A stretch of DNA of 64,000 bases from an uncultured Collinsella sp. (GTDB lineage: Bacteria; Actinomycetota; Coriobacteriia; Coriobacteriales; Coriobacteriaceae): NCBI GenBank assembly GCA_959606495.1, contig CAUHJB010000004.1, positions 12,813-76,812 of the forward strand. The letters run 5' to 3'. Each line of letters begins with the position of its first letter. Position 1 is the stretch's first letter. Of this stretch, positions 37,912 to 50,056 are shown piece after piece. Under the pieces are notes generated by a model. That model had not been told where the DNA came from. It saw only the letters and a program-made list of their open reading frames with translations, and searched no databases. Both the position numbers and the translations under genes were made by a program.

Positions 37912-38241
37912 CTATAACGCCGCGGCGATTGCTTCGGTCACAAACTTATTGAGTGACTCGCCCTTTTTTGCCGCCGCCAGTGCTGCCTGCTTGTGAAGCT
38001 CGGAGCCTGTTCTCACATTGAACGAGCCCTTAAAAGCCCGCTCTGGTTCCTTGCCCTTTTCGGCACAAAACTCAAGGTAATCGTCGACGGCGTCGTGGAA
38101 GCATTGCTCCACTTCTTCAGCCGTGGAGCCTTCAAATACGATTGCATCCCTAATGCCGGCGACCATACCTGTTAGTACATGCTGCTCGGCATCGAACTCG
38201 ACTGGGGCGAAATAGCCCTTGTATGCCAAAACGTTACTCAT
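37912..38241 (-). CDS. hicB: HicB family antitoxin
   Basis: YKGYFAPVEFDAE..L.G...I.D...FEG.T..E N-terminal HicB fold, C-terminal RHH-like FNVRTGSELHKQAALAA. The start overlaps the hicA stop (ATGAGTAA). Confidence 0.85.
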   Translation of the reverse strand: MSNVLAYKGYFAPVEFDAEQHVLTGMVAGIRDAIVFEGSTAEEVEQCFHDAVDDYLEFCAEKGKEPERAFKGSFNVRTGSELHKQAALAAAKKGESLNKFVTEAIAAAL

Positions 38242-38497
38242 GACTGCCTCCGACATCCTGCAGAAATCGAACGATGTTTCGAATTGTCTCCGCTGTCAAT
38301 TCGTCAGATGGATGAGGCACGTGCATCACGAACATCCTGCCATCTGAGGGCCTGTAGAAGCGAACGCGCGATCCGGATGTCTTGCCTTTGCTGTCCATTT
38401 CAAAGCCATATGAGGCCATGACTTTTAAAAAATCGGCATACCGATACGTCGAAGGGCAGCTAAACAGTTGGGCGATGAGTTTATCGGCTCGAGTCAT
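38234..38497 (-). CDS. hicA: HicA family mRNA interferase toxin
   Basis: 87 aa. FLKVMASYGFEMDSKGKTSGSRVRFYR..MHVPHP is typical of YcfA/HicA. Confidence 0.85.
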   Translation of the reverse strand: MTRADKLIAQLFSCPSTYRYADFLKVMASYGFEMDSKGKTSGSRVRFYRPSDGRMFVMHVPHPSDELTAETIRNIVRFLQDVGGSHE

Positions 38498-38643: not shown

Positions 38644-41600
38644 CTAGCCCAGCAGGTCGATGACGTTAAAGCCGGCGTTGCTCTTGGCGATGACGTCTCG
38701 GCCGCCAAAGACGCAGGTGGGCGACTCGGCTGCGATGCGCGTCACGTCGGCGCCGAGCGAGCGCAGCTCACCGGGCGTGGCGGCGAGCATCTGGGCGCGA
38801 CGCTCCTCGCGCGCATGCGGATCGAGCCCGGCCAGGTAGGTCGTGTTGCGGCGCTTGGTGAGCGCGTACGGCTTCACCGGCGCGTCCATGCCGCTCACGC
38901 AGCTCACGATAAAGCCCTCAAAGGCGGCTTCGTCGGGCTCAAAGCTGCCAAGCCATGCACCCGCGCGCTCCACGCGCTCAATCGAAGGATCGATCGCCGG
39001 GTCGCGGTAGGTGTAGAACGCCGCCTGACGCTCACCTGCCGCGCGGAATCCGCAGCCGTACGCCCCGCCCTTCACGCGGATCTCGTTCCACAGGTAGTCG
39101 TAGGAGAGCGCGTTGGCAGCCACGGCCCAAGTGCCTGTCACGTCAATGCCCAGGCGACGCGGGTCACACGCGCTTGCCGCAAAGCAGATGTCGCTGGGGA
39201 TCACGAAAGCCTCGTGGCGGTCGCACGGCGCCGGCACCACGAGCGCGTCGCGGCCGGCACCATCGCCCGCACCCAGCCCCAGGTCGCCCGCGGCATCCCA
39301 GTACGCGTCAAAGTCCTCGTCGCTGCCGGTAAAGCTCGCCATGCAGCCATCGGCCACAAAGATGCGGCCTGCCAGTTCGGTAAGCTTGGCGCGCAGGTCG
39401 TCCAGGCGCTCGTCAAAGTGGTCGAGCAGATCGCGCAGGAACAGGTAGAAGTCCACGCCCGAAAGCTGCTCGCGCACCACGGCCGAAGGCGAGCTGTAGC
39501 TCATCGCGCGACCGAGCGCCGCCGAGTGACCATTGTTGATAAAGCCCTGCTCAAGCCCAATGCGAATCTGCGTGAGCACGTCGCGCACGCGGTCGGCGTC
39601 GGCATCTGCCAAAAGCGTGCTCGACCATACCTCGCGCGGCAGACTCGCCAGTGCATCAATCTTCTCGGACAGGGCGCCGGCGCTCACCAGCAGGTAGGGG
39701 CGCACGCCGTCCACGTCGGGCTGGGTCATGACTTCGGTCGTAAAGCTCAAAAAGCCCAGCTTGCCAGCGAGCAAGTTGTCGAGTTCCTCGGCCGAGTGCT
39801 CGCGCGTGGGCAGCTGCTTAAGCAGGCGGCAGAGCAGCGTCACATAGGGCAGGTCCTCAAACGCGACGCAGCTCAGGTCGAAATACTGCATGGCGTAGGC
39901 CAGGCGGTTGGTAGGGATGTCGTGGCGCAGACAGGGGATGGGCGCGGTCGTGTCCACGACCAGCGGCGGTTCGGGGCGCGCCTCGCCAATGTCGGACACG
40001 CGCAGGCGCGGCAGCGTGGCCTTGTCCTCGGGCGTGTCCTCGGCTTCCTGCGCGGCACGCAGCGCGGCCGTGCGCTCGACCACGTCGACCAGCTCGGAAT
40101 CGGTCATGGCGTCGCGCTTGGCTGCCAGCTCGATGGCCTCGGCACCCTCCGAACCCTCGGCGGCGTCCACCGGCACCAGCTCGACGAGCGCCATGTGGTC
40201 GTTCTCCAGCACCAGCTCGCGCAGCAGGTCCTCAAAATAGCTGCCGTCCAGCTCGCTACGCAGCTCCTCGTACACCGGGCCGTACTTGAGCGCCAGCGTC
40301 GCGGCGTCGTCATCGTAGAGCCACGTGCTCAGCGCGTCGCACGCAATGGCCACGCCGTCGGCGATACCGTAGTCGCGCTGGCGCAGGTCGTATTCGTTGC
40401 TGCTGATGATGGCTTCCAGGCGCTCGCGCGGAACGCCATGCTCGCATAGGTCGCGGCAGGCGTCCTGGAACACGCGGCGCAGCTCGCGCGCCACGCCGGG
40501 CTGTGCGTTTTGCAGCATGATGAGCTCGTAGGGCTGCAGGCTCTCGGCCGCGGTGTAGCTCACCACGTTGCCGCCCAGGCCGGCGGCCAGAATGGCCTTC
40601 TTAACCGGCGCTTCGTTGGAGCCCAGCAGCGCCTCGAACAGGATGTCCGCCGCGATCGTGCGCTTGCGATCGAGCGCGCTGCCCAGCACCAGGCCCAGGC
40701 CCACCAGGGCGTTCTCGGGTGTGGTGGCCATCTCGACGCGCTTGTACTCGCAGGTCACGGGCGCCTGCACGTCCAGCGGATTGGGCGCCAGCGCGGACGG
40801 GTCCTCGCCGGCGGCGACGGCAGCGTCCATGCGGCGGCTCGCGGCACTCGGCTGCGACAGATAGCGCTCGTCCAAAAAGGCCAGTGCGCGGTCCACGTCC
40901 AGGTCGCCGTAGAGCGTGATGTAGGAGTTGGAAGGGTTGTAGTGGCGTGCGTGCGTGTCCAGGAACTGCTCGTAGGTGAGCGCCGGGATCACGCGCGGGT
41001 CGCCGCCGCTCTCGTGCGCATAGGCGGTGTCGGGATAGAGCGCGGCGTTGACGGCGTCGTCCAGCACGCTCATGGGGTCGGACAGCGCGCCCTTCATCTC
41101 GTTGAACACCACGCCGTTATAGCGCAGCGTGCCCTCGCGCAGGCTCGCGGAGCTGTCGCCGCCCTCGCCCTCGACGCTCTCCGGTAGGTCCAGCTCGTAG
41201 TGCCAGCCTTCCTGCTCAAAAATGGTGGGTTTGGTATAGATGGCCGGGTTGAACACCGCGTCCAGGTACACGTCCATCAGGTTGTACAGATCCTGCTCGT
41301 TGGTGGTGGCAACGGGGTAGATGGTCTTGTCGGGGTAGGTCATGGCGTTGAGAAACGTCTGCATGGAGCTCTTGATCAGGTCGACAAACGGCTCCTTGAC
41401 GGGGAATTTGGCCGATCCGCACAGCACCGAGTGCTCAAGAATATGGAACACGCCGGTGGAATCGGCCGGCGGCGTCTTAAAGCCAATGGCAAAGGCCTTG
41501 TTCTCGTCATCGCACGCCAGGTACAGCAGGCGAGCGCCCGAGGCGGTGTGGCGCAGCACGTAGGCGTCCGAGTCGAGCTCGGGCACGGTTTCGCAGCGCT

Positions 41601-41682
41601 CGACGGCAAAACCGTGGCAGGTGGTACCGGGTACCAGCAGCGCGGCAGCAGCGGCGCGCGGGTCGGTTGAGGTGGCGGACAT
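38644..41682 (-). CDS. M16C insulinase-family zinc metallopeptidase (PreP-like)
   Basis: HILEHSVLCGS (HxxEH), about 1012 aa. ATG at 41682 preceded by AAAGGAG. The track ORF extends to 41904 only by reading through a repeat array. Confidence 0.88.
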   Translation of the reverse strand: MSATSTDPRAAAAALLVPGTTCHGFAVERCETVPELDSDAYVLRHTASGARLLYLACDDENKAFAIGFKTPPADSTGVFHILEHSVLCGSAKFPVKEPFVDLIKSSMQTFLNAMTYPDKTIYPVATTNEQDLYNLMDVYLDAVFNPAIYTKPTIFEQEGWHYELDLPESVEGEGGDSSASLREGTLRYNGVVFNEMKGALSDPMSVLDDAVNAALYPDTAYAHESGGDPRVIPALTYEQFLDTHARHYNPSNSYITLYGDLDVDRALAFLDERYLSQPSAASRRMDAAVAAGEDPSALAPNPLDVQAPVTCEYKRVEMATTPENALVGLGLVLGSALDRKRTIAADILFEALLGSNEAPVKKAILAAGLGGNVVSYTAAESLQPYELIMLQNAQPGVARELRRVFQDACRDLCEHGVPRERLEAIISSNEYDLRQRDYGIADGVAIACDALSTWLYDDDAATLALKYGPVYEELRSELDGSYFEDLLRELVLENDHMALVELVPVDAAEGSEGAEAIELAAKRDAMTDSELVDVVERTAALRAAQEAEDTPEDKATLPRLRVSDIGEARPEPPLVVDTTAPIPCLRHDIPTNRLAYAMQYFDLSCVAFEDLPYVTLLCRLLKQLPTREHSAEELDNLLAGKLGFLSFTTEVMTQPDVDGVRPYLLVSAGALSEKIDALASLPREVWSSTLLADADADRVRDVLTQIRIGLEQGFINNGHSAALGRAMSYSSPSAVVREQLSGVDFYLFLRDLLDHFDERLDDLRAKLTELAGRIFVADGCMASFTGSDEDFDAYWDAAGDLGLGAGDGAGRDALVVPAPCDRHEAFVIPSDICFAASACDPRRLGIDVTGTWAVAANALSYDYLWNEIRVKGGAYGCGFRAAGERQAAFYTYRDPAIDPSIERVERAGAWLGSFEPDEAAFEGFIVSCVSGMDAPVKPYALTKRRNTTYLAGLDPHAREERRAQMLAATPGELRSLGADVTRIAAESPTCVFGGRDVIAKSNAGFNVIDLLG

Positions 41683-41772
41683 ATGCAGTCTCCTTTGACG
41701 CCCCAGCGGGGGCGAATCGAGTCGAATCCTCGAGAGTATACCCATATGGGGCCTTCGACCAATCTGCCGCAC

Positions 41773-41915
41773 GAGCGTGGATTTTCGGACACACGAGCGT
41801 GGAAATTCGGACGCCTGCCAAATGACAGTGGATTTTCGGACGAAATCGGCCGCCAAAAGCCCAAAAACCGTCCAAATATCCACTCTCGATATCCGACCGT
41901 TCATAATCCACGCTC
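41773..41915. repeat. Family A repeat array A4
   Basis: Direct units at 41773, 41796, and 41824, and inverted units at 41870-41887 and 41899-41915. Confidence 0.85.
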
Positions 41916-41951
41916 ATCCGCCGCCCGCACAACTCTCATATCTCATTCGTC

Positions 41952-42164
41952 TCTAATACGAGAGATAACAGATAGATGAGAGATAAATATGAGAGATAAC
42001 AATGCTGCAAAGAGACGGGCAACCATGGTATTGTCTCAATATAGATTGTTTTACCAGCAACAACATGTTTAAATGAAACAGATGACAGACATCTTATCTC
42101 TCATCTTTCACTCATATCTAATACGAGAGATAACAGAAAGATGAGAGATAATTACAAGAGATAA
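41952..42164. repeat. Iteron-like GAGAGATAA array including a 35-bp direct repeat
   Basis: TCTAATACGAGAGATAACAGA(T/A)AGATGAGAGATAA at 41952-41986 and 42117-42151. Perfect 9-mers at 41960, 41978, 41991, 42125, and 42143, one inverted at 42094, and a variant at 42156. Confidence 0.85.
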
Positions 42165-42220
42165 CTGAGAGACGAGGGGAATCCGTCTGCAGCATTCTCC
42201 GCAGGACCGAGCGAAGGGAC

Positions 42221-43693
42221 GTGCAGATGAACGAAAACGAGCTGGCCGGTTTGCTCGAGTCTTTAAAGCGCATGGGTTCGGATGACTTTAGCGTCGAAGT
42301 AAAGGAGAGCGCCACGACGCTTTCCCGCGACGTATGGGAAACGGTCAGCGCTTTCGCAAACACCGCCGGCGGCATCATCGTACTCGGAGTGAGCGAGCGC
42401 GCGGGTTTTGTCCCAGTTGCAAACTTTGAGACCGAGAAAGTGCTCAACCAATTCGTGGCGGGCATGGGCGATGCCGGCGGTCGCGGAAAGCTGGCCAATC
42501 CGCCCAAATACACCATTGAGCGCGTGGAGCTCCAGGGCACCGTGGTTCTAGTCATCGCGATTGAGGAGCTTGACCCGTCGAGCAAGCCTTGCTATGTCAT
42601 AGAGCGGGGCGCTCAAGGTGGCAGCTACAAACGCATCGATGATAAAGATGTCCCGCTTTCGTCGACCGAGGTTTTGGCACTGTCGTCATATGAACGGACG
42701 AGTCCTAGCGATCGCGATGTGGCGCCCGGCACGAGTGTGGGCGATCTCGACGAGTCGCTGGTCGACCGCACGATAGAGCGTGCCTATTCGTTGACGCCTC
42801 GAGCGATGCGCGGTGCGGCGGACAAGAAGACAAAGATGGAGCGTCTGAATTTCCTCGACTTCCAGGGCAATGTTACCAAGGCCGGCCTCCTTACCGCGGG
42901 CATTTACCCTCAGCAGTTCTATCCCAAGCTCTTCATTGATGTGGCTGTCCACGTGGGAACTCAAAAGGGAGCTGCGGGGCCACTAAGGTTTATGGACCGC
43001 ACAGTCTGCGAGGGCACCCTAGGCGAGATGATTTCGGATGCCGTCGCAGCTGTCGCCAAAAACCTGCGCCGCATCTCGACCGTCCAAGGCGTCTCGCGTA
43101 TCGACTCGCTGGAGATCCCCGAGGAGGTCCTGCGCGAGGCAGTCGCCAACGCGGTTATCCACAGGGAATACGGGGATCGGTTCTGTGGACAATCGATTGC
43201 CGTCGACGTCTTTGACGATCGTGTCGAGGTGACGAATCCTGGCGGCCTTTACGGGGGAAAGACTCGCGAGAACTTGTTTGACGGCAGCTCCCGATGCCGT
43301 AACGCGACGCTCGTGAAACTCATGTCGATTGTCCCGCTTCCGGATGGCGCAGGTTCGCCGGCTGAGGGCAATGGCTCGGGCATCCCGATGATGATCGATG
43401 CCATGCGCGCGCATGGTCTGGCCGAGCCCCTGTTCTGCCCGGGGTTCGATCGGTTCAAGGTCGTACTTTGCCGTTCAAAGATCGAGCCGGTCGATCATGG
43501 CGGGGGCTTAATTGTGACGGCACTCAAACACTACGGCGAGCTGGGGACGCGTGAGCTGGCAAAACGCACGGGGCTTACAATTTCCCAGGTTAGGTCGCGC
43601 GTCAACGCGCTCATTGCTCAAGGCGAGCTTGAGCCCACGGCGCCGTCGACAAGCCGCAACCGCAAATATCGACTGTCAGAGCGCGTGGAATAA
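42221..43693 (+). CDS. Schlafen/AlbA_2 domain + HATPase_c_4 + C-terminal wHTH protein
   Basis: AlbA_2-like N-terminus (VEVKES...VSAFANTAGGIIVLGV), VLREAVANAVIHREY ATPase-like box, and a C-terminal wHTH (TRELAKRTGLTISQVRSRVNALI). An ATG at 42227 is also possible. Confidence 0.75.
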   Translation: MQMNENELAGLLESLKRMGSDDFSVEVKESATTLSRDVWETVSAFANTAGGIIVLGVSERAGFVPVANFETEKVLNQFVAGMGDAGGRGKLANPPKYTIERVELQGTVVLVIAIEELDPSSKPCYVIERGAQGGSYKRIDDKDVPLSSTEVLALSSYERTSPSDRDVAPGTSVGDLDESLVDRTIERAYSLTPRAMRGAADKKTKMERLNFLDFQGNVTKAGLLTAGIYPQQFYPKLFIDVAVHVGTQKGAAGPLRFMDRTVCEGTLGEMISDAVAAVAKNLRRISTVQGVSRIDSLEIPEEVLREAVANAVIHREYGDRFCGQSIAVDVFDDRVEVTNPGGLYGGKTRENLFDGSSRCRNATLVKLMSIVPLPDGAGSPAEGNGSGIPMMIDAMRAHGLAEPLFCPGFDRFKVVLCRSKIEPVDHGGGLIVTALKHYGELGTRELAKRTGLTISQVRSRVNALIAQGELEPTAPSTSRNRKYRLSERVE

Positions 43694-43793
43694 ATGCGTT
43701 AGTGGACGAGGCGACCCAATAATCGACCCTCGATTGGCGCCCACTAAGGTAAAGCGGTTGTTGCCCAGTCGACGGTGATGCTAAAGACTCGGC

Positions 43794-44285
43794 TTACGCC
43801 GGCATGGCCCCGAACCCGTCCATCAAGAACAGCCTAAGAACCAGCTTGATGACATTTCCCGGTTTGACTTCAGCCGTGCCAAAGACGCTGCGCTCGGCGA
43901 GCTCGCTGCAGTATGCGTAGATATCGCGGATAAGGTCCGCGCCCGAAAGCGTAAACATGTAGCCTGCGTCCGAAAGCGCATTGGGCGCGGCGGGCAACTT
44001 GGCCATGTGACAAAAGGTCAACAGGTCGGGCGCCATAGCGTCTTGGTAGCCAAGATGGCCGCCGTCTTCTTGTGCGGCGAGTTCCAGCTGGCGTACTCGA
44101 TCCAGCGCCGCTGCCAGCACAAAGCTCGGTGTGGGCGCATTGACGTCTTCCGTGTTCGCCACGAGTTTGCCCGCCGCCTGTGTGACAAGCCAGGCGACCT
44201 CGCGCTGGCAACGCACGGCCTTGCGCGTAACCGGCTTGATGGACGAAGAAGAAACGCTCCCCTTAGGCGGATTCGAAGCAGCCAT
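43794..44285 (-). CDS. Hypothetical protein (163 aa)
   Basis: Plausible helical composition. GGGAGGG SD 5 nt before the ATG. Competing frames are Arg-rich junk. Confidence 0.5.
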   Translation of the reverse strand: MAASNPPKGSVSSSSIKPVTRKAVRCQREVAWLVTQAAGKLVANTEDVNAPTPSFVLAAALDRVRQLELAAQEDGGHLGYQDAMAPDLLTFCHMAKLPAAPNALSDAGYMFTLSGADLIRDIYAYCSELAERSVFGTAEVKPGNVIKLVLRLFLMDGFGAMPA

Positions 44286-44296
44286 AAGACCCTCCC

Positions 44297-44866
44297 ATGA
44301 ACAATCCGGCCCAACAAGCCCGGATGAAACACGTGCTACATCAGTATACAGGGGAGTGGGGTAGCGGGGTACAAGCGCGCCAGCGGCAAACCGAGAGCAT
44401 CAACAATGTGCCTCCGCTCTATTTGGACGATGGTACGTGGGTCATTAAGTACTCGGTTCAAGCGCCGGGTACCGTTGGTTTTCGAGACCAGAATTACAAC
44501 CGTAAAATGCTCAACTGCATGGAATGTGACGTCCCAGTCGGAGTCATATTTGCAACCGAGGTGGGCTATAAGGTGCTCGGCCTTGCGTTTGTTGAGCGGT
44601 TCGAGCCCGAAAACGGATGGTTTGTTCTGCACGGTCCTGTTCATAAAGGCGGACCGGACCCTCGTTTTGCGCCCGACATGAGTTATCTGAAGCACATACC
44701 CGTCGATATTGAGTTTGCCGGACAGGGTGCGACCGACGATGAAATTTGGTTTTGGCGGTCTTTTAAGATCGTGTTGTTTGATCGGATCGCGTGGCGATGC
44801 AATCTCGCGCCCGCCCGCCGGTGCATGCTCTTCCTGATTTGCATAGCGAGAGGGGAGCGTGTATGA
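44297..44866 (+). CDS. Hypothetical protein, possible SRA/PUA-like beta-barrel domain
   Basis: NRKMLNCMECDVPVGVIFA...YKVLGLAFVERFEPENGWFVLHG resembles the SRA-YDG pattern. No SD (leaderless?). The odd Arg/Cys/Leu C-terminal tail may be degenerate. Confidence 0.45.
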   Translation: MNNPAQQARMKHVLHQYTGEWGSGVQARQRQTESINNVPPLYLDDGTWVIKYSVQAPGTVGFRDQNYNRKMLNCMECDVPVGVIFATEVGYKVLGLAFVERFEPENGWFVLHGPVHKGGPDPRFAPDMSYLKHIPVDIEFAGQGATDDEIWFWRSFKIVLFDRIAWRCNLAPARRCMLFLICIARGERV

Positions 44867-45147
44867 GCTGGCGAGGCGATATTGCGATGGGGAAGTACGG
44901 AAAACTGCCGTGTGCTCTTATCGACAACAATATGTTTCCGAGCGTAGAGGTTGATTGCGGGTCGTTTGTCGTCGCCTGCCCTTGCTGCGGCTCGCAAATA
45001 CCGTGTCTCGACATTCGGTTCATCGATGCGCGCGACAGGCTCAGCGACGAAGTGAGAAAACGGACAGGCGTTCATATGCCGGTGTATCCGGAGAAATGCC
45101 CTGTTTGTGGCCTCGATATCGTGTACGACGCCGGCGACGAGGGATAG
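44863..45147 (+). CDS. Small zinc-ribbon protein (94 aa)
   Basis: GAGAGGGGAG SD, ATGA overlap with the upstream ORF, and CPCCG...CPVCG cysteine pairs. Confidence 0.55.
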   Translation: MSWRGDIAMGKYGKLPCALIDNNMFPSVEVDCGSFVVACPCCGSQIPCLDIRFIDARDRLSDEVRKRTGVHMPVYPEKCPVCGLDIVYDAGDEG

Positions 45148-45185
45148 GTGATGCGGAGGAGCTGACTGTGAAGGCCTCTCCGTCC

Positions 45186-45872
45186 CTACAAATAAATCCC
45201 CTCACCGAGCTGCTTGTGGAACTCGGCGTGATGGTCGCGTGCCCAGGTAAAGAGCGCCTGGTCAAAGTCGGTGCGCGCGGCCGGGGCGCCAAAGACGCCG
45301 GCAACTTCGACGCGTACAAACTCCAGTGCCGGCAGCTTGTTGATGGCAGTGAGGGCAAACGGGGACGAGGGCTCCTCGAACAGATAGCGGCTGCCTTGCA
45401 GCGCGTTGCAACTGGTGCACGTGTTGCCGAGCGACGGGGCTTTGGAGGCTCGCGTGCCTACGGGCTTGTAGCCGCAGCGCTTAGAAAGATAGTCGCGGAT
45501 CTCGCCCGGCACGCAGCCAAGAGCGGGCACGATGGCGAGTGCGTTGGCGTTGGCCGTGTCGATGGCAATGTGCCCGGCTTCGTTGGGCGCGTGCGCGATG
45601 GCGATGCCCTTGTCGTCATCGGTTCGGTAGGGAATGCCGAAGGCCGCGACCGAGGTCTCTTTGTGACACTTCCAGCACTCGCGCTTGCCCAGTACTAGAT
45701 ATATATACGGCGCTGAGGGGTCGGATCGGTCAACACCGGGCAGCCACTCGGCAAAGGGCTCGGGGTTGACGCCGCTGGGTACATACCAGATCTTCTTGGT
45801 CCGGTCCCATTTGGCGCCCAGCGCCTTGGCTTCTTCTTTGTGCGAAAAGGGGACATCGAGCTCGGTGCGCAT
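45186..45872 (-). CDS. DUF5710-like N-terminal domain protein with a Cys-rich C-terminal region
   Basis: LDVPFSHKEEAKALGAKWDRTKKIWYVP motif; CWKC and CTSC pairs. AAGGAG SD before the ATG at 45872. Confidence 0.6.
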   Translation of the reverse strand: MRTELDVPFSHKEEAKALGAKWDRTKKIWYVPSGVNPEPFAEWLPGVDRSDPSAPYIYLVLGKRECWKCHKETSVAAFGIPYRTDDDKGIAIAHAPNEAGHIAIDTANANALAIVPALGCVPGEIRDYLSKRCGYKPVGTRASKAPSLGNTCTSCNALQGSRYLFEEPSSPFALTAINKLPALEFVRVEVAGVFGAPAARTDFDQALFTWARDHHAEFHKQLGEGIYL

Positions 45873-46161
45873 GGCGGCTCCTTGGTGCTGCAGGTGCGAG
45901 TGGCTCAAGGATACCGCAGGGCGCAGGCATCGCGGCGTTTTGTTGAGAAGTTGCGGCGCGGACTGCTTGGTTACGCCGTTAGATAAATTGGCAAGTAGAT
46001 GGTCGGCTTTTGACCAGTTGGGCGGTTGGAGCAGCTTGCGGCGCAGTTTTCTGCCTGGCTATTGTTGCTGTTGGGGTATTGAATTTGTTTGGCAGCCATT
46101 CGTCAGGTGAATTGATGTTACGTTGCGATGACGGTTGGAGCTGCCAACGGATTTGGCGACA

Positions 46162-46200
46162 TAAAACAAAACAGCCCAGAGGACATAGCCTCTGAGCTGC
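46162..46200 (-). terminator. Rho-independent terminator of tRNA-Val
   Basis: On the minus strand: CAGCTCAGAGG-CTATGT-CCTCTGGGCTG then TTTTGTTTT. Confidence 0.75.
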
Positions 46201-46207
46201 GAACATT

Positions 46208-46282
46208 TGGTGGGCGTTAGAAGATTTGAACTTCTGACCTCTTCCGTGTCAGGGAAGCGCTCTCCCCCTGAGCTAAACGCCC
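46208..46282 (-). tRNA. tRNA-Val (anticodon GAC), CCA encoded
   Basis: Hand-folded. Acceptor GGGCGTT/AACGCCC; anticodon stem CTTCC/GGAAG with loop CTGACAC; T-loop TTCAAAT. Confidence 0.9.
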
Positions 46283-47594: not shown

Positions 47595-47743
47595 CTGGCG
47601 CCGCCGCCAAGACAGAAAAGGTGTTGTGCCGCATTTTCGCCAATTGACGTCCGTGTCTGGAGTTTAGCTGTCGATGCTCAAAATGCCATAAACTAGTAAC
47701 GTTATGGATTTTTTCATTGCGACTCAATTGCGAGGATTTCTTT

Positions 47744-50056
47744 ATGGCTGGTAATCACTTTAAGGGCAGCGATAACGGCCGTCCTGCAGTTCCGCCGCGT
47801 CCGAACGGGGCTGGTAAGGCCGGCACGCCGGGCGGCGCTGGACAGGGCGGTTCCAGTAAGCGCGTGTCCCCGGGCGAGACGGCGATGTTTACCGCTCTGT
47901 ACGAGCAGTCTCAAAAGGCGAAAAAGACCGGCCGTGCAAGAGGGAATGTCTTTGCGGGCGGTGCAACCTCCGCGTCGCAGCCGAGCGGGGCTCCTTCGGT
48001 ACCTGCGAACAACGCAGGTGCTGCCAACGCCGCAAATGCCGCCGGCAACGTTAATGCCGGCAAGGCCGCCAACAATACTCCCTCTGCCGGTGGCGCGGGG
48101 CTTACGGGTAACCTTGGCACGATTTACACCGGTGCCTCCGAGACTGGCACGTTCGCCCGCCTGGATGATAGCGGTGCCGAGTTTGCGGGCTCGGGTTCCA
48201 AGGAAGATTATTACGATTTTGGCTTGAACTACGGTAGCGACGCTTCGTCGAGTTCGACCTCTGACGGTCTGGTCCGTCATCGCCATCGCAAGGGCGAACG
48301 CAAAAAGCGTCACACCGGCGCCATTATTGCCGCTGTAGTCGCGGTGCTTCTCGTTGCGCTTGGCGCAAGCGGCTTTATGCTGCTTAACTCGGCAAAGACC
48401 GTAAAGAGTGAAGCGAAGGAGGCCGTCGAGATTGTCGGTGGCCTTAAGGACAAGGTCACGTCGGGCGATTTTTCGACGCTGCCTGACGACGCGAAGAAGA
48501 TTGATGAGCTTTGCGACAGCATGAAGGCGGAGACCTCGAGCCCGCTGTGGACGGCGGCTTCGTTTATCCCGGTGTATGGCAGCGACATCAATGCGGCCCG
48601 CACCATGATCGACGCCCTGTCCGATGTCTCGAGCAATGCGCTGGTTCCCATGGCCGATAACCTTTCGCAGGCCACGCCCGGCAAGCTGTTTCAGGACGGC
48701 ATGATTAACGTGTCCGCGCTGCAGGCGGTCGCCGATTCGCTTTCCAGCAGCTCGAAGGTGTTCAAGAGCGCCAACGAGAAGATCCAGGGCATTGGCGATA
48801 CTCATATTTCCCAGGTGACCGAGCTGGTCGATAAGGCCAAGGACGGCTTTGCCACCCTCAACGGCGCGGTTGACGCGGCGGAGAAGGTCGCCCCCGTCCT
48901 TCCGCAGATGCTCGGCGCCAACGGCCAGACGCGCAACTACCTTGTGTACGCCATGAACAACGTCGAGATTCGTGCCTGCGGCGGCTTTGGCGGTTCGCAG
49001 GGCCTGATTTCGGTCACCGACGGCCAGATGTCGATTGGCGAGTTTGTTCCCCGCATTGGACTCAGCGAGGATGAGGCAGTCGAGAGCGTCGACGAAGAGG
49101 ATGAGGCGCTGTTCGGCAACCACAGTAACCTGTACAACTCGGGCAATACCTATTCGCCTGATTGGCCCCGCAACTCGCAGCGTGTCGCAGCCCTGTGGAA
49201 ATCTCAATATGGCCAGGACGTTGACGGCGTCGTGGGTATCGACCCGGTGTTCCTGCAGTATCTGCTGGGCCTGGTCGGTAACGTGTCGCTGCCCGACGGA
49301 ACGGTTGTCGACGGCACCAACGCCGCAAAGGTCCTCATGCACGATGTGTACTGGAACTATCCGGTCGAGGAGTCGGACGGCATCTTTGCATCCGTCGCCA
49401 GCGCTGCCTTCGACAAGATCCTTGGCGGTATCGGCGATGTCGATGTTACGAAGCTTGTCAGCGCCGTTGAGCGCGGTGCCGAAGAGGGCCGCCTGATCGC
49501 GTGGATGAAAAACGATGACGAGCAGAACGCTATCAAGGAGATGAACATCGACGCCTCGCTGCCCGATCCGGATGACCCGAGTGAAGATCCCGTTGCTGGT
49601 GTCTACTTTAACAACCTGAGCTTCTCCAAGCTCGACTGGTACCTGAATGCCGATACGCAGATTGGCCAGGGCATCAAGAACGGTGACGGCACATGCTCGT
49701 ATCGCATCACCGTTACCCTGACGAACATCATGACGCAGGAGGAGGCCGGCAAGCTGCCCGACTACGTCGCGGCGAGCGCGCCCGATGCCGCGCGCGACGA
49801 CGAGCGTCTGAATGTCTCGTTGTTTGCCCCGACGGGCGGCAACATTACTGATCTGACCGTCGAGGGCACCCAGTTTGGTCTTGGCGCCGCTACGTGGCAT
49901 GGAATCCCCTTCTATTCGGGCACCGTTGACCTGCATGCTGGCGAGACGACGACGATCACATATACGCTGACCACGTCAGCCGAGGCGGGGGACAAGCCGC
50001 TTACGCTGCGTCAGACTCCTACATGCCAGGCGGCTCGCGACAGCGCGTCGGCGTAG
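47744..50056 (+). CDS. DUF4012-domain membrane-anchored extracellular protein
   Basis: Disordered Gly/Ala/Asn-rich N-terminus, one TM (IIAAVVAVLLVALGASGFMLL), and the typical DUF4012 segment NNVEIRACGGFGGSQG. Confidence 0.75.
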   Translation: MAGNHFKGSDNGRPAVPPRPNGAGKAGTPGGAGQGGSSKRVSPGETAMFTALYEQSQKAKKTGRARGNVFAGGATSASQPSGAPSVPANNAGAANAANAAGNVNAGKAANNTPSAGGAGLTGNLGTIYTGASETGTFARLDDSGAEFAGSGSKEDYYDFGLNYGSDASSSSTSDGLVRHRHRKGERKKRHTGAIIAAVVAVLLVALGASGFMLLNSAKTVKSEAKEAVEIVGGLKDKVTSGDFSTLPDDAKKIDELCDSMKAETSSPLWTAASFIPVYGSDINAARTMIDALSDVSSNALVPMADNLSQATPGKLFQDGMINVSALQAVADSLSSSSKVFKSANEKIQGIGDTHISQVTELVDKAKDGFATLNGAVDAAEKVAPVLPQMLGANGQTRNYLVYAMNNVEIRACGGFGGSQGLISVTDGQMSIGEFVPRIGLSEDEAVESVDEEDEALFGNHSNLYNSGNTYSPDWPRNSQRVAALWKSQYGQDVDGVVGIDPVFLQYLLGLVGNVSLPDGTVVDGTNAAKVLMHDVYWNYPVEESDGIFASVASAAFDKILGGIGDVDVTKLVSAVERGAEEGRLIAWMKNDDEQNAIKEMNIDASLPDPDDPSEDPVAGVYFNNLSFSKLDWYLNADTQIGQGIKNGDGTCSYRITVTLTNIMTQEEAGKLPDYVAASAPDAARDDERLNVSLFAPTGGNITDLTVEGTQFGLGAATWHGIPFYSGTVDLHAGETTTITYTLTTSAEAGDKPLTLRQTPTCQAARDSASA

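What the first reader, a model, noticed from the sequence alone, without database searches (positions are those of the whole stretch)
41931..46207. Lower-GC islet next to the 3' end of tRNA-Val carrying five uncharacterised genes: candidate novel (defence-like) module
Between the M16 peptidase upstream region and tRNA-Val(GAC), composition drops visibly and codon usage looks different.

The segment contains:
- an iteron-like repeat field;
- a Schlafen/AlbA_2-HATPase_c_4-wHTH protein (42221-43693);
- a 163-aa unknown on the opposite strand;
- a 189-aa protein with an SRA/PUA-like pattern;
- a translationally coupled 94-aa zinc-ribbon protein;
- a DUF5710-like Cys-rich protein.

None has a housekeeping assignment. 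tRNA 3' ends are classic island integration sites. AlbA_2/Schlafen and SRA-like modified-base readers are recurrent in anti-phage islands. No integrase or att duplicate is visible, so this may be an old, fixed insertion.
Basis: partly seen in the sequence, partly recalled or inferred. Interest (0 to 1): 0.72.

Follow-up and report, generated by a model that had tools for sequence, protein, structure and literature searches.

The report
Decayed restriction gene in swap slot
This low-GC stretch of a Collinsella aerofaciens genome is a variable restriction-gene site whose modification-dependent (SRA-HNH) nuclease has been gutted by two deletions in this strain, so it is an ordinary, largely dead defence locus rather than a new five-gene system.

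Summary
The segment has the lowest GC of any 4.3-kb stretch in the window. The five ORFs, the tRNA-Val(GAC) 3' end and six GAGAGATAA repeats are all present, and the domain calls for A and E are confirmed.

The interpretation as one novel five-gene module integrated at the tRNA is not supported. Eighty Collinsella loci show a mosaic:
- A (AlbA_2/HATPase_c_4/wHTH), B and E (DUF5710 plus a Cys-rich domain) recur at this position around different slot cassettes. A and the A-M16 interval are themselves variable.
- The slot at window ~44362-45180 is swapped between strains. It holds either a 363-aa SRA-HNH Type IV restriction endonuclease plus the 94-aa zinc-ribbon orphan D, or a Sau3AI/MutH-like Type II R-M pair. 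Deletion stubs of both also occur.

In this window, "C" (189 aa) is a chimeric remnant. One deletion removed the promoter, the start codon and the first ~108 codons. A second removed codons 223-363, which include the whole HNH domain. The overlap with D's start codon is a by-product of that second deletion.

A good model of the intact sister allele (pLDDT 87) matches TagI, VcaM4I and SRA domains.

No integrase, att repeat or empty site was found. A, B, D and E are under purifying selection, and their function remains unknown.

The parts
41933..42165 (.). Repeat field: two 68-nt direct repeats (41933-42000 and 42098-42165) carrying six GAGAGATAA motifs and partial inverted copies. They flank a ~100-nt AT-rich spacer that contains a TTGTTT-N17-TTAAAT promoter-like site reading toward A.
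   Evidence: Repeats and counts come (6 observed, 0.08 expected). The field stays directly upstream of A when a PTS operon separates A from the M16 gene. It is highly conserved across loci, and both units persist in L019 and L071 where A is replaced. The promoter-like hexamers are my reading of the sequence. An operator function is inferred.
42221..43693 (+). Gene A: a 490-aa AlbA_2 (Schlafen-like) + HATPase_c_4 + winged-HTH protein of the COG2865 type. Function unproven.
   Evidence: Pfam gives HATPase_c_4 at 4.5e-21, SLFN_AlbA_2 at 4.5e-13 and HTH_24 at 3.5e-4. PHROG 12156 matches full length at 1.6e-46. PDB matches are 2kyy and 3lmm. PADLOC gives only domain-level hits to pAgo-associated models. 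dN/dS is 0.105.
43794..44285 (-). Gene B: a 163-aa lineage-specific orphan that forms the left flank of the swap slot.
   Evidence: No hit in four libraries. dN/dS is 0.17 with no internal stops in 22 alleles. It is present beside every slot state. Sources annotate it as a hypothetical protein of Collinsella aerofaciens.
44362..45180 (.). Swap slot, the cassette region exchanged between strains. Here it holds the decayed Type IV cassette (C remnant + D).
   Evidence: The same left and right boundaries are seen for the intact C+D cassette (L018), the Type II R-M cassette (L006) and the R-M stub (L004). Slot sizes are 904, 877, 992, ~1747, ~3100 and 330 nt.
44297..44866 (+). ORF 'C' (189 aa): a chimeric pseudogene remnant of a 363-aa SRA-HNH endonuclease gene. 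Only 44402-44743 (aa 36-149) is homologous to the parent, at its residues 106-219. The N-terminal 35 aa come from a short ORF in the conserved flank. The last ~40 aa are read-through into the former intergenic region.
   Evidence: Three collinear blocks align to L018, with ~390-nt and ~430-nt gaps. Junction 1 has a CGATGTGCC microhomology. The parent has HNH_2 at aa 250-299. One search gives the residue mapping. dN/dS is 0.64 among decayed alleles against 0.128 among intact ones.
44863..45147 (+). Gene D: a 94-aa CxxC...CxxC zinc-ribbon orphan, the second gene of the Type IV cassette.
   Evidence: D is present in every locus that has a C-type cassette (intact or deleted) and absent from R-M cassette loci. 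dN/dS is 0.17. The Cys pairs are conserved in the 47%-identical L071 allele, and the start codon is confirmed by upstream stops. Homologues are all at least 63% identical; where a source names them they are Collinsella. Two distant C homologues examined lack a D-like gene.
45186..45872 (-). Gene E: a 228-aa protein with an N-terminal DUF5710 domain and a C-terminal four-Cys domain. It forms the right flank of the slot.
   Evidence: Pfam DUF5710 at 2.7e-21. The family alignment has invariant CxxC...CxxC and LQG. dN/dS is 0.31. No PDB relative was found. Only the DUF5710 part is found in viral contigs. Distant homologues neighbour GmrSD, LlaJI, NERD-HRDC, an SF1 helicase and an A-like protein.
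46171..46200 (-). Terminator-like hairpin directly after tRNA-Val.
   Evidence: 12-bp stem followed by a T run.
46208..46282 (-). tRNA-Val(GAC) with an encoded CCA. It marks the right boundary of the variable region.
   Evidence: ARAGORN. Rfam tRNA at 70 bits. A promoter-like site lies at 46340-46312. It is 100% identical in all loci that reach it.

Best explanation
The segment is a strain-variable accessory region of the Collinsella aerofaciens complex. It lies between the M16C (PreP-like) peptidase gene and tRNA-Val(GAC).

Its core is a swap slot for restriction genes, flanked by two conserved orphan genes: B on the left and E on the right. In sister genomes the slot holds one of two cassettes.
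- A 363-aa Type IV (modification-dependent) restriction endonuclease, followed by the small zinc-ribbon protein D. Its SRA domain would flip out and read a modified cytosine, and its C-terminal HNH_2 domain would cut nearby.
- A Type II R-M pair: a C5-cytosine methyltransferase with a MutH/Sau3AI-like endonuclease.

In this window the Type IV gene has been inactivated by two internal deletions.
- Deletion 1 occurred between CGATGTGCC microhomologies. It removed the gene's upstream region, start codon and first ~108 codons, including the family-invariant Tyr105 and Asp107 region of the SRA fold.
- Deletion 2 removed codons 223-363, which include the whole HNH nuclease and the stop codon.

This locus most likely provides no restriction in this strain.

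Gene A sits behind a conserved array of GAGAGATAA repeats that probably act as operator sites. A, B, D and E are intact and under purifying selection, but their roles are unknown.

Shown: the anatomy, the deletions, the allelic cassettes, the fold of the intact allele, and the selection signatures. Inferred: the base-flipping and cleavage mechanism, the loss of function, and the operator role of the repeats.
For: Taxon and synteny: the M16 protein is 96-98% identical in 80 Collinsella loci. A, B and E are at the same position in most of them.

Deletions: window 44200-44412, 44394-44744 and 44744-45200 align to L018 7473-7261, 6868-6515 and 6086-5630. One search shows the junction sequences.

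The intact parent gene:
- L018 6090-7181 encodes 363 aa with HNH_2 at 8e-11.
- The full-length gene has no stop codons in 16 loci plus the divergent L071.
- A phmmer search of the SRA-containing N-terminal part found 171 clusters, mostly 300-360 aa.
- Of 71 members scanned, 62 carry HNH_2 and 3 hit SAD_SRA.
- The family profile hits the VcaM4I HNH at 1.3e-8 and, weakly, TagI.
- The AlphaFold model of the intact allele has pLDDT 87.
- Foldseek's top hits are TagI (SRA-HNH, 6e-6), VcaM4I, the SUVH5, KRYPTONITE and UHRF1 SRA domains, and ScoMcrA.

The window copy keeps only parent residues 106-219.

Other decayed alleles:
- Independent deletion alleles with other end points occur in L017, L032 and L074.
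- Deletion-1-only, deletion-2-only and frameshifted forms are in the protein database.
- dN/dS of the retained core is 0.128 among intact alleles and 0.64 among decayed ones.

The alternative cassette:
- It has the same boundaries as the Type IV cassette.
- Its genes hit DNA_methylase at 1.7e-53 and MutH at 3.7e-30, and PADLOC MTase_II at 6e-152 and REase_II at 1e-96.
- It is present in 8 loci.

A, B, D and E have dN/dS of 0.105, 0.17, 0.17 and 0.31.

The role of SRA as the specificity module of Type IV enzymes is established knowledge (PMC7641849).
Against: - No experiment shows that the intact allele cuts modified DNA. The fold match to whole-chain targets has low TM scores (0.24-0.31) because the domain arrangements differ. 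Only the SRA-domain targets reach a target-normalised TM of about 0.5.
- The 189-aa frame is open in all 10 window-type alleles, and their dN/dS of 0.64 rests on very few substitutions. A residual function of the fragment is therefore not excluded.
- D stays under purifying selection even where C is dead, so the cassette is not entirely inert.
- Whether A, B and E have anything to do with restriction is unknown.
The age and origin of the islet are therefore open.
Confidence: 0.8

Rival explanations
1. A, B, C, D and E form one novel, co-functioning anti-phage module that entered as an island at the 3' end of tRNA-Val and is now fixed.
For: - GC is the lowest in the window.
- The segment lies next to a tRNA 3' end.
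- AlbA_2-type and SRA-type domains are present.
- A distant E homologue lies directly beside an A-like protein and a LlaJI-type endonuclease.
Against: - C and D are exchanged as a unit for a Type II R-M cassette while A, B and E stay.
- A is absent or replaced in some loci (L019, L032, L071) where B and the C-D-E genes remain.
- C is a deletion remnant without a nuclease.
- There is no integrase among the ORFs. There is no copy of the tRNA 3' end elsewhere in the window. No locus has tRNA-Val next to the M16 gene.
- PADLOC finds no system proteins for B-E.
- There is no DNA similarity to phages or plasmids.
Confidence: 0.07
2. The truncated C has been domesticated. The C-terminal SRA fragment and zinc-ribbon D are kept as a non-nucleolytic modified-DNA sensor or regulator, perhaps feeding into A.
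For: - The reading frame is open in all 10 window-type alleles, and two other deletion alleles also keep an ORF across the same core.
- D is under purifying selection in these genomes.
- All three deletion designs spare the same core and D.
Against: - The fragment lacks the N-terminal half of the SRA fold, including family-invariant Tyr105 and near-invariant Asp107, Gly76, Ile77 and Pro80.
- Its own promoter, RBS and start codon were deleted.
- The tail is out-of-frame read-through.
- Constraint is relaxed relative to intact alleles (0.64 against 0.128).
- Many further frameshifted and truncated versions circulate. That is the signature of decay.
Confidence: 0.08
3. The islet is not about defence at all in this strain. 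A is an ordinary autoregulated transcription factor controlling neighbouring genes. B and E are lineage-specific genes with unrelated roles. The restriction cassettes merely use a permissive intergenic site.
For: - A has a wHTH and a conserved operator-like array in its promoter.
- E has near-native GC3 of 0.77.
- The same interval also accepts PTS sugar operons and pilin/PilZ genes in sister genomes. It is therefore a general accessory-gene hotspot.
Against: - Four distant E homologues examined with informative neighbours all sit beside nuclease or helicase genes of defence type: GmrSD, LlaJI, NERD-HRDC and an SF1 helicase.
- A's only PADLOC hits, though domain-level, are to pAgo-associated proteins.
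- This rival overlaps with the main explanation rather than contradicting it. The main claims concern C and the slot.
Confidence: 0.25

Closest known systems
TagI-type SRA-HNH Type IV (modification-dependent) restriction endonucleases (PDB 6ghs). Related PUA-HNH enzymes are VcaM4I (EVE-HNH, 6yex) and ScoMcrA.
   Same: The intact sister allele has the same two-module design: an N-terminal SRA/PUA-like reader and a C-terminal HNH_2 nuclease. TagI is the top Foldseek hit, and SRA domains of SUVH5, KRYPTONITE and UHRF1 follow. The HNH part aligns to VcaM4I at 1.3e-8.
   Different: Sequence similarity of the reader domain to Pfam SAD_SRA is below detection in most members (3 of 71). There is an extra N-terminal helical region. 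The subfamily is small, at 171 clusters.
Sau3AI/MutH-like Type II R-M system (C5-MTase + REase)
   Same: This is the alternative occupant of the same slot in 8 sister loci. Pfam gives DNA_methylase and MutH; PADLOC gives MTase_II and REase_II.
   Different: It is not present in this window. Only its mutually exclusive allelic relationship to the Type IV cassette is relevant here.
Variable restriction loci with allelic cassettes between conserved flanks, such as the E. coli immigration control region and the birth and death of R-M genes in Helicobacter and Neisseria (from general knowledge, not tested here)
   Same: Conserved flanks, alternative restriction cassettes with identical boundaries, and frequent inactivation by deletion or frameshift.
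   Different: The flanking genes here (B, and E with DUF5710) are uncharacterised orphans. The locus also abuts a tRNA gene and accepts metabolic cassettes further left.
COG2865-type AlbA_2/HATPase_c_4/HTH proteins ('RecG-like helicase' or 'putative transcriptional regulator' annotations; PDB 3lmm, 2kyy)
   Same: Gene A has the full three-domain architecture and matches PHROG 12156 end to end.
   Different: No member has a demonstrated function that I could find. The conserved GAGAGATAA array upstream is specific to this locus.

Membership tests
SRA-HNH Type IV restriction endonuclease | SRA/PUA-like modified-base reader fold | tested here: not met
   The intact sister allele meets it: its model (pLDDT 87) matches TagI and SRA domains with probability 1.00. 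The window's copy keeps only parent residues 106-219 and loses invariant Tyr105 and the N-terminal half of the fold.
SRA-HNH Type IV restriction endonuclease | HNH nuclease domain | tested here: not met
   HNH_2 lies at aa 250-299 of the 363-aa sister protein. The window has a ~430-nt deletion covering codons 223-363. Pfam finds nothing in the 189-aa ORF.
SRA-HNH Type IV restriction endonuclease | Cleavage dependent on modified cytosine | not testable with these tools
   This needs enzyme assays or plasmid and phage challenge.
tRNA-integrated genomic island | Integrase or recombinase gene at the tRNA-proximal end | tested here: not met
   No such ORF lies in 41931-46207. Pfam hits of the five proteins contain no integrase or recombinase domain.
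tRNA-integrated genomic island | Direct repeat of the tRNA 3' end (attL/attR) | tested here: not met
   The 25-nt tRNA 3' end occurs only once in the 64 kb, allowing up to 3 mismatches. The only short match to the tRNA is a 14/15 hit to its middle, inside gene B (D15). That is at chance level.
tRNA-integrated genomic island | Empty site in relatives (tRNA-Val directly next to the M16 gene) | tested here: not met
   In the loci that reach both genes, the window type (4.5 kb) is already the shortest interval. More distant genera were not retrieved, so ancient insertion is not excluded.
tRNA-integrated genomic island | Atypical base composition | tested here: met
   GC of 0.572 is the lowest of all 4277-nt windows. 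GC3 of C and D is 0.60-0.65, against 0.73-0.86 for most neighbouring genes.
Known anti-phage systems in PADLOC-DB v2 | Protein-level match of the module's genes to system models | tested here: not met
   B, C, D and E have no hits. A has only partial domain-level hits to pAgo-associated models, the best at 1.5e-9.
AlbA_2/HATPase_c_4 (COG2865-type) proteins, for gene A | SLFN_AlbA_2 + HATPase_c_4 domains above Pfam gathering scores, plus a C-terminal HTH | tested here: met
   50.2 bits against a 25.3 cutoff and 75.1 against 26. HTH_24 scores 20.5, just under its 21.9 cutoff.
Iterons of a plasmid or phage replication origin, for the repeat field | Repeats adjacent to a cognate Rep initiator gene or an AT-rich unwinding element of a replicon | tested here: not met
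   The repeats are real, but no Rep gene is nearby. There is no plasmid or phage similarity. The array sits in the promoter region of A in all loci.

The most novel reading that the evidence does not exclude
A, B and E are not passive flanks. They would be an uncharacterised conserved platform associated with restriction cassettes. In particular, the E family (DUF5710 plus a four-Cys domain) would be a previously unrecognised partner, regulator or anti-MGE component that travels with restriction and nuclease genes in unrelated bacteria. Its neighbours elsewhere include GmrSD, LlaJI, NERD-HRDC, an SF1 helicase and an AlbA_2-HATPase_c_4 protein. In this reading, A acts through the GAGAGATAA array as the locus's sensor or regulator.
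Probability: 0.12. Interest if true: 0.6.

Novelty: new member of a known kind. Interest (0 to 1): 0.3.

Why it matters
The locus is a clean natural example of how restriction genes turn over in an abundant human gut bacterium. One chromosomal slot holds a methylation-dependent nuclease in some strains and a cytosine methyltransferase with its nuclease in others. In many strains, including this one, it holds deletion scars of either.

This helps explain strain-level differences in phage and plasmid susceptibility in Collinsella. It also warns that the 189-aa 'hypothetical protein' is a pseudogene fragment.

Three items remain for follow-up:
- the small, uncharacterised SRA-HNH subfamily (171 clusters);
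- its zinc-ribbon companion D;
- the DUF5710 protein E, which repeatedly neighbours restriction genes.

None of these amounts to a new kind of system on present evidence.

Tried and rejected
1. An AlphaFold model from a shallow 7-sequence alignment of close homologues gave pLDDT 34 and was discarded. It was replaced by a 71-sequence alignment from the exhaustive HMMER search.

2. Direct phmmer of the 363-aa protein against PDB found only the HNH part.

3. L084 at first looked like a divergent species with an empty slot, because its E is only 68% identical. It proved to be an error-prone assembly of the same complex, with frameshifted M16, EamA and E genes. Its 'empty' slot is a deletion stub of the R-M cassette, identical to L004.

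4. I tested whether D is a general partner of SRA-HNH enzymes. Two distant C homologues have no D-like gene. D homologues are all at least 63% identical. D is therefore lineage-specific.

5. A profile of the E family against PDB gave nothing credible. A viral-contig scan found only the DUF5710 domain.

6. Rfam found nothing but the tRNA. The promoter and terminator scan was at background level, apart from the tRNA's own signals.

7. Distant-mode DNA searches against phage and plasmid collections found no match.

8. The search for an att copy of the tRNA 3' end found none.

9. The literature on AlbA_2/HATPase_c_4, COG2865 and DUF5710 gave no functional study. It gave only a 'RecG-like' HHpred remark (PMC7641849) and Rep_3-DUF5710 fusions in Acinetobacter plasmids (PMC11233732).

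10. No C5-methyltransferase homologue is present in the 64-kb window. I therefore could not test whether loss of the Type IV enzyme is linked to a methylase gained elsewhere.

Full report
**What is at the coordinates**

The window comes from the Collinsella aerofaciens complex. The M16C peptidase encoded at 38644-41676 (minus strand) is 96-98% identical to proteins encoded in 80 Collinsella contigs.

- A (42221-43693) carries SLFN_AlbA_2, HATPase_c_4 and a winged HTH.
- E (45186-45872) starts with DUF5710.
- B, C and D match nothing in Pfam, NCBIfam or PADLOC, and nothing significant in PHROGs.

The segment's GC of 0.572 is below every 4277-nt window sampled across the 64 kb (median 0.607). 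GC3 is lowest in C (0.60) and D (0.65), and near native in E (0.77).

The repeat field is real. GAGAGATAA occurs six times in 41960-42151 and nowhere else in the window, against 0.08 expected. The copies sit within two 68-nt direct repeats.

**Comparative anatomy**

I mapped the five proteins, tRNA-Val and the neighbouring genes onto the 80 related loci. A, B and E sit at the same place in most loci that reach far enough. The interval is a mosaic.

- *Left of A.* Some genomes carry an extra ~5-kb PTS/GntR operon between the M16 gene and A. Others carry a larger sugar-utilisation block, and A-E are then out of view.
- *Between B and E.* There is a slot of sharply varying size: 904, 877, 992, ~1747, ~3100, 330 and ~4000 nt.
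  - With ~1747 nt (16 loci) the slot holds a 363-aa gene followed by D.
  - With ~3100 nt it holds a C5-cytosine methyltransferase and a MutH/Sau3AI-like endonuclease. Pfam gives 1.7e-53 and 3.7e-30. PADLOC gives MTase_II at 6e-152 and REase_II at 1e-96. This pair is present in 8 loci.
  - Both cassettes have the same boundaries, at window positions ~44362 and ~45180.
  - The 330-nt 'empty' slot (L004, L084) is a deletion stub of the R-M pair.

**What 'C' is**

The window aligns to the intact locus L018 in three collinear blocks. The 189-aa ORF is therefore a patchwork.
- About 35 codons come from a short ORF in the conserved flank.
- 114 codons correspond to parent residues 106-219.
- About 40 codons are read-through.

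The read-through ends at the TGA that overlaps D's ATG. The apparent translational coupling is an accident of the second deletion.

*Deletion 1* (L018 ~7261 to 6868) lies between CGATGTGCC microhomologies. It removes the parent gene's upstream region, start codon and first ~108 codons.

*Deletion 2* (L018 6515 to 6086) removes codons 223-363 and the stop codon. The lost part contains the HNH_2 domain (aa 250-299; 8e-11).

Other strains carry different deletion pairs: L017 and L032 share one pair, and L074 has another. The protein database holds deletion-1-only, deletion-2-only and several frameshifted versions. The gene is therefore lost repeatedly.

Selection agrees with this. dN/dS of the shared core is 0.128 among intact alleles and 0.64 among the window-type alleles. 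The latter rests on few substitutions.

**Identity of the intact gene**

Of 71 members scanned, 62 carry HNH_2 and 3 reach Pfam SAD_SRA.

Their profile hits the HNH of VcaM4I at 1.3e-8. It hits TagI weakly, across both domains.

An AlphaFold model built on this alignment has mean pLDDT 87. Its best PDB matches are:
- TagI, the SRA-HNH modification-dependent endonuclease;
- VcaM4I (EVE-HNH);
- the SRA domains of SUVH5, KRYPTONITE and UHRF1;
- ScoMcrA.

The intact allele is thus a member of the known SRA-HNH class of Type IV restriction enzymes. In that class the SRA domain flips out and reads modified cytosine and targets cleavage (PMC7641849).

The window's copy, however, lacks the N-terminal half of that fold, including family-invariant Tyr105 and near-invariant Asp107, Gly76, Ile77 and Pro80. 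It also lacks the whole nuclease.

**The other genes**

D (94 aa) is a real gene.
- Its start is fixed by upstream stops in sister loci.
- Its two CxxC pairs are conserved in a 47%-identical allele.
- Its dN/dS is 0.17.
- It always accompanies the C-type cassette and is absent with the R-M cassette.
- Two distant C homologues have no D-like gene, and D has no relatives below 63% identity. It is a lineage-specific companion of unknown role.

A, B and E are under purifying selection, with dN/dS of 0.105, 0.17 and 0.31. Sources call them 'hypothetical' or 'DUF5710 domain-containing'.

The repeat array stays directly upstream of A even when a PTS operon separates A from the M16 gene. It is strongly conserved. 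Both 68-nt units persist where A is replaced by a PilZ-domain gene. Its position on either side of a promoter-like TTGTTT-N17-TTAAAT suggests operator sites. That role, and A as the binding protein, are inferences.

**E's neighbours elsewhere**

The few distant E homologues with usable context sit beside:
- a GmrSD Type IV enzyme and an IS1595 transposase (L083);
- an SF1 helicase (L085);
- an A-like AlbA_2-HATPase_c_4-HTH protein and a LlaJI-type endonuclease (L086);
- a NERD-HRDC protein (L087).

DUF5710 alone is common in viral contigs. It is fused to Rep_3 initiators in Acinetobacter plasmids (PMC11233732).

This is guilt by association from four contexts. It motivates the 'novel case' but does not establish a role.

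**Island hypothesis**

The evidence does not support integration at the tRNA.
- There is no integrase.
- There is no second copy of the tRNA 3' end.
- There is no DNA similarity to phages or plasmids.
- No related locus has tRNA-Val next to the M16 gene. The window type is already the shortest interval seen.
- The tRNA has its own promoter-like site and terminator-like hairpin.

The composition shift is concentrated in the exchangeable C/D cassette. The region is better described as a long-standing accessory-gene hotspot with a restriction slot than as a tRNA-integrated island. An ancient event cannot be excluded, because genomes outside the complex were not retrieved.

**Verdict**

The locus is defence-related and the SRA call was right. 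But it is a mosaic rather than one module, its active component belongs to a known enzyme class, and in this strain that component is a deletion scar.

Interest is modest. The orphan partners D, B and E and the repeat-guarded A are the only parts that might hide something new.

Noticed in passing
window 37912-38497 (minus strand): A HicA/HicB toxin-antitoxin pair lies just downstream of the M16 gene (Pfam). Its GC is low at 0.50-0.53. It is present in many sister loci but absent in others whose contigs extend far enough, such as L002, L022 and L024. This is a second small accessory insertion flanking the peptidase gene.
   Followed up: partly
window 41764-41841 and 41905-41920: A second repeat family: three tandem ~27-nt copies of CACGAGCGTGGATTTTCGGAC-like sequence, plus an inverted partial copy (D2 and I12). 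It lies between the likely M16 start codon and the GAGAGATAA field, inside the spurious N-terminal extension of the long M16 ORF. It may be another operator array.
   Followed up: no
L005 4774-9519, L019 4975-9720, L025/L043 400-7730: Sister genomes carry different PTS (mannose-family) sugar operons with GntR-type regulators inserted between the M16 gene and the repeat field or A. The interval is a general accessory-gene hotspot, not only a restriction site.
   Followed up: partly
L019 850-4595; L071 4711-6498: In loci lacking A, the space behind the repeat field holds a PilZ-domain protein and pilin/flagellin-like proteins with class III-type signal peptides.
   Followed up: no
window 47717-50056 (plus strand): The 779-aa protein downstream of the EamA transporter falls into two main allele classes among sister loci: ~96-100% identical or ~73% identical, with one locus at 88%. 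This points to a second polymorphic, possibly surface-exposed, gene next to the islet.
   Followed up: no
window 44297-44361, and the same place in L018, L006 and L004: A short ORF beginning MNNPAQQARMKHVLHQYTGEW lies in the conserved left flank of the slot in every cassette state. It runs 44 codons in L018 and ~29 in L006. In the window it supplies the start codon of the chimeric 189-aa frame. Whether it is a real leader peptide is unknown.
   Followed up: no
L084 (GCA_037022285.1 contig JBAMEH010000830.1): The M16, EamA and E genes are all broken into frameshifted pieces in this assembly. Protein P0117, derived from it, therefore looks misleadingly divergent at 68% identity.
   Followed up: yes
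window 44141-44155 vs 46235-46249: A 14/15-nt direct match links the middle of tRNA-Val and the inside of gene B (D15). It does not include the tRNA 3' end, and its strength is comparable to other chance pairs in the region. I judge it to be chance.
   Followed up: partly
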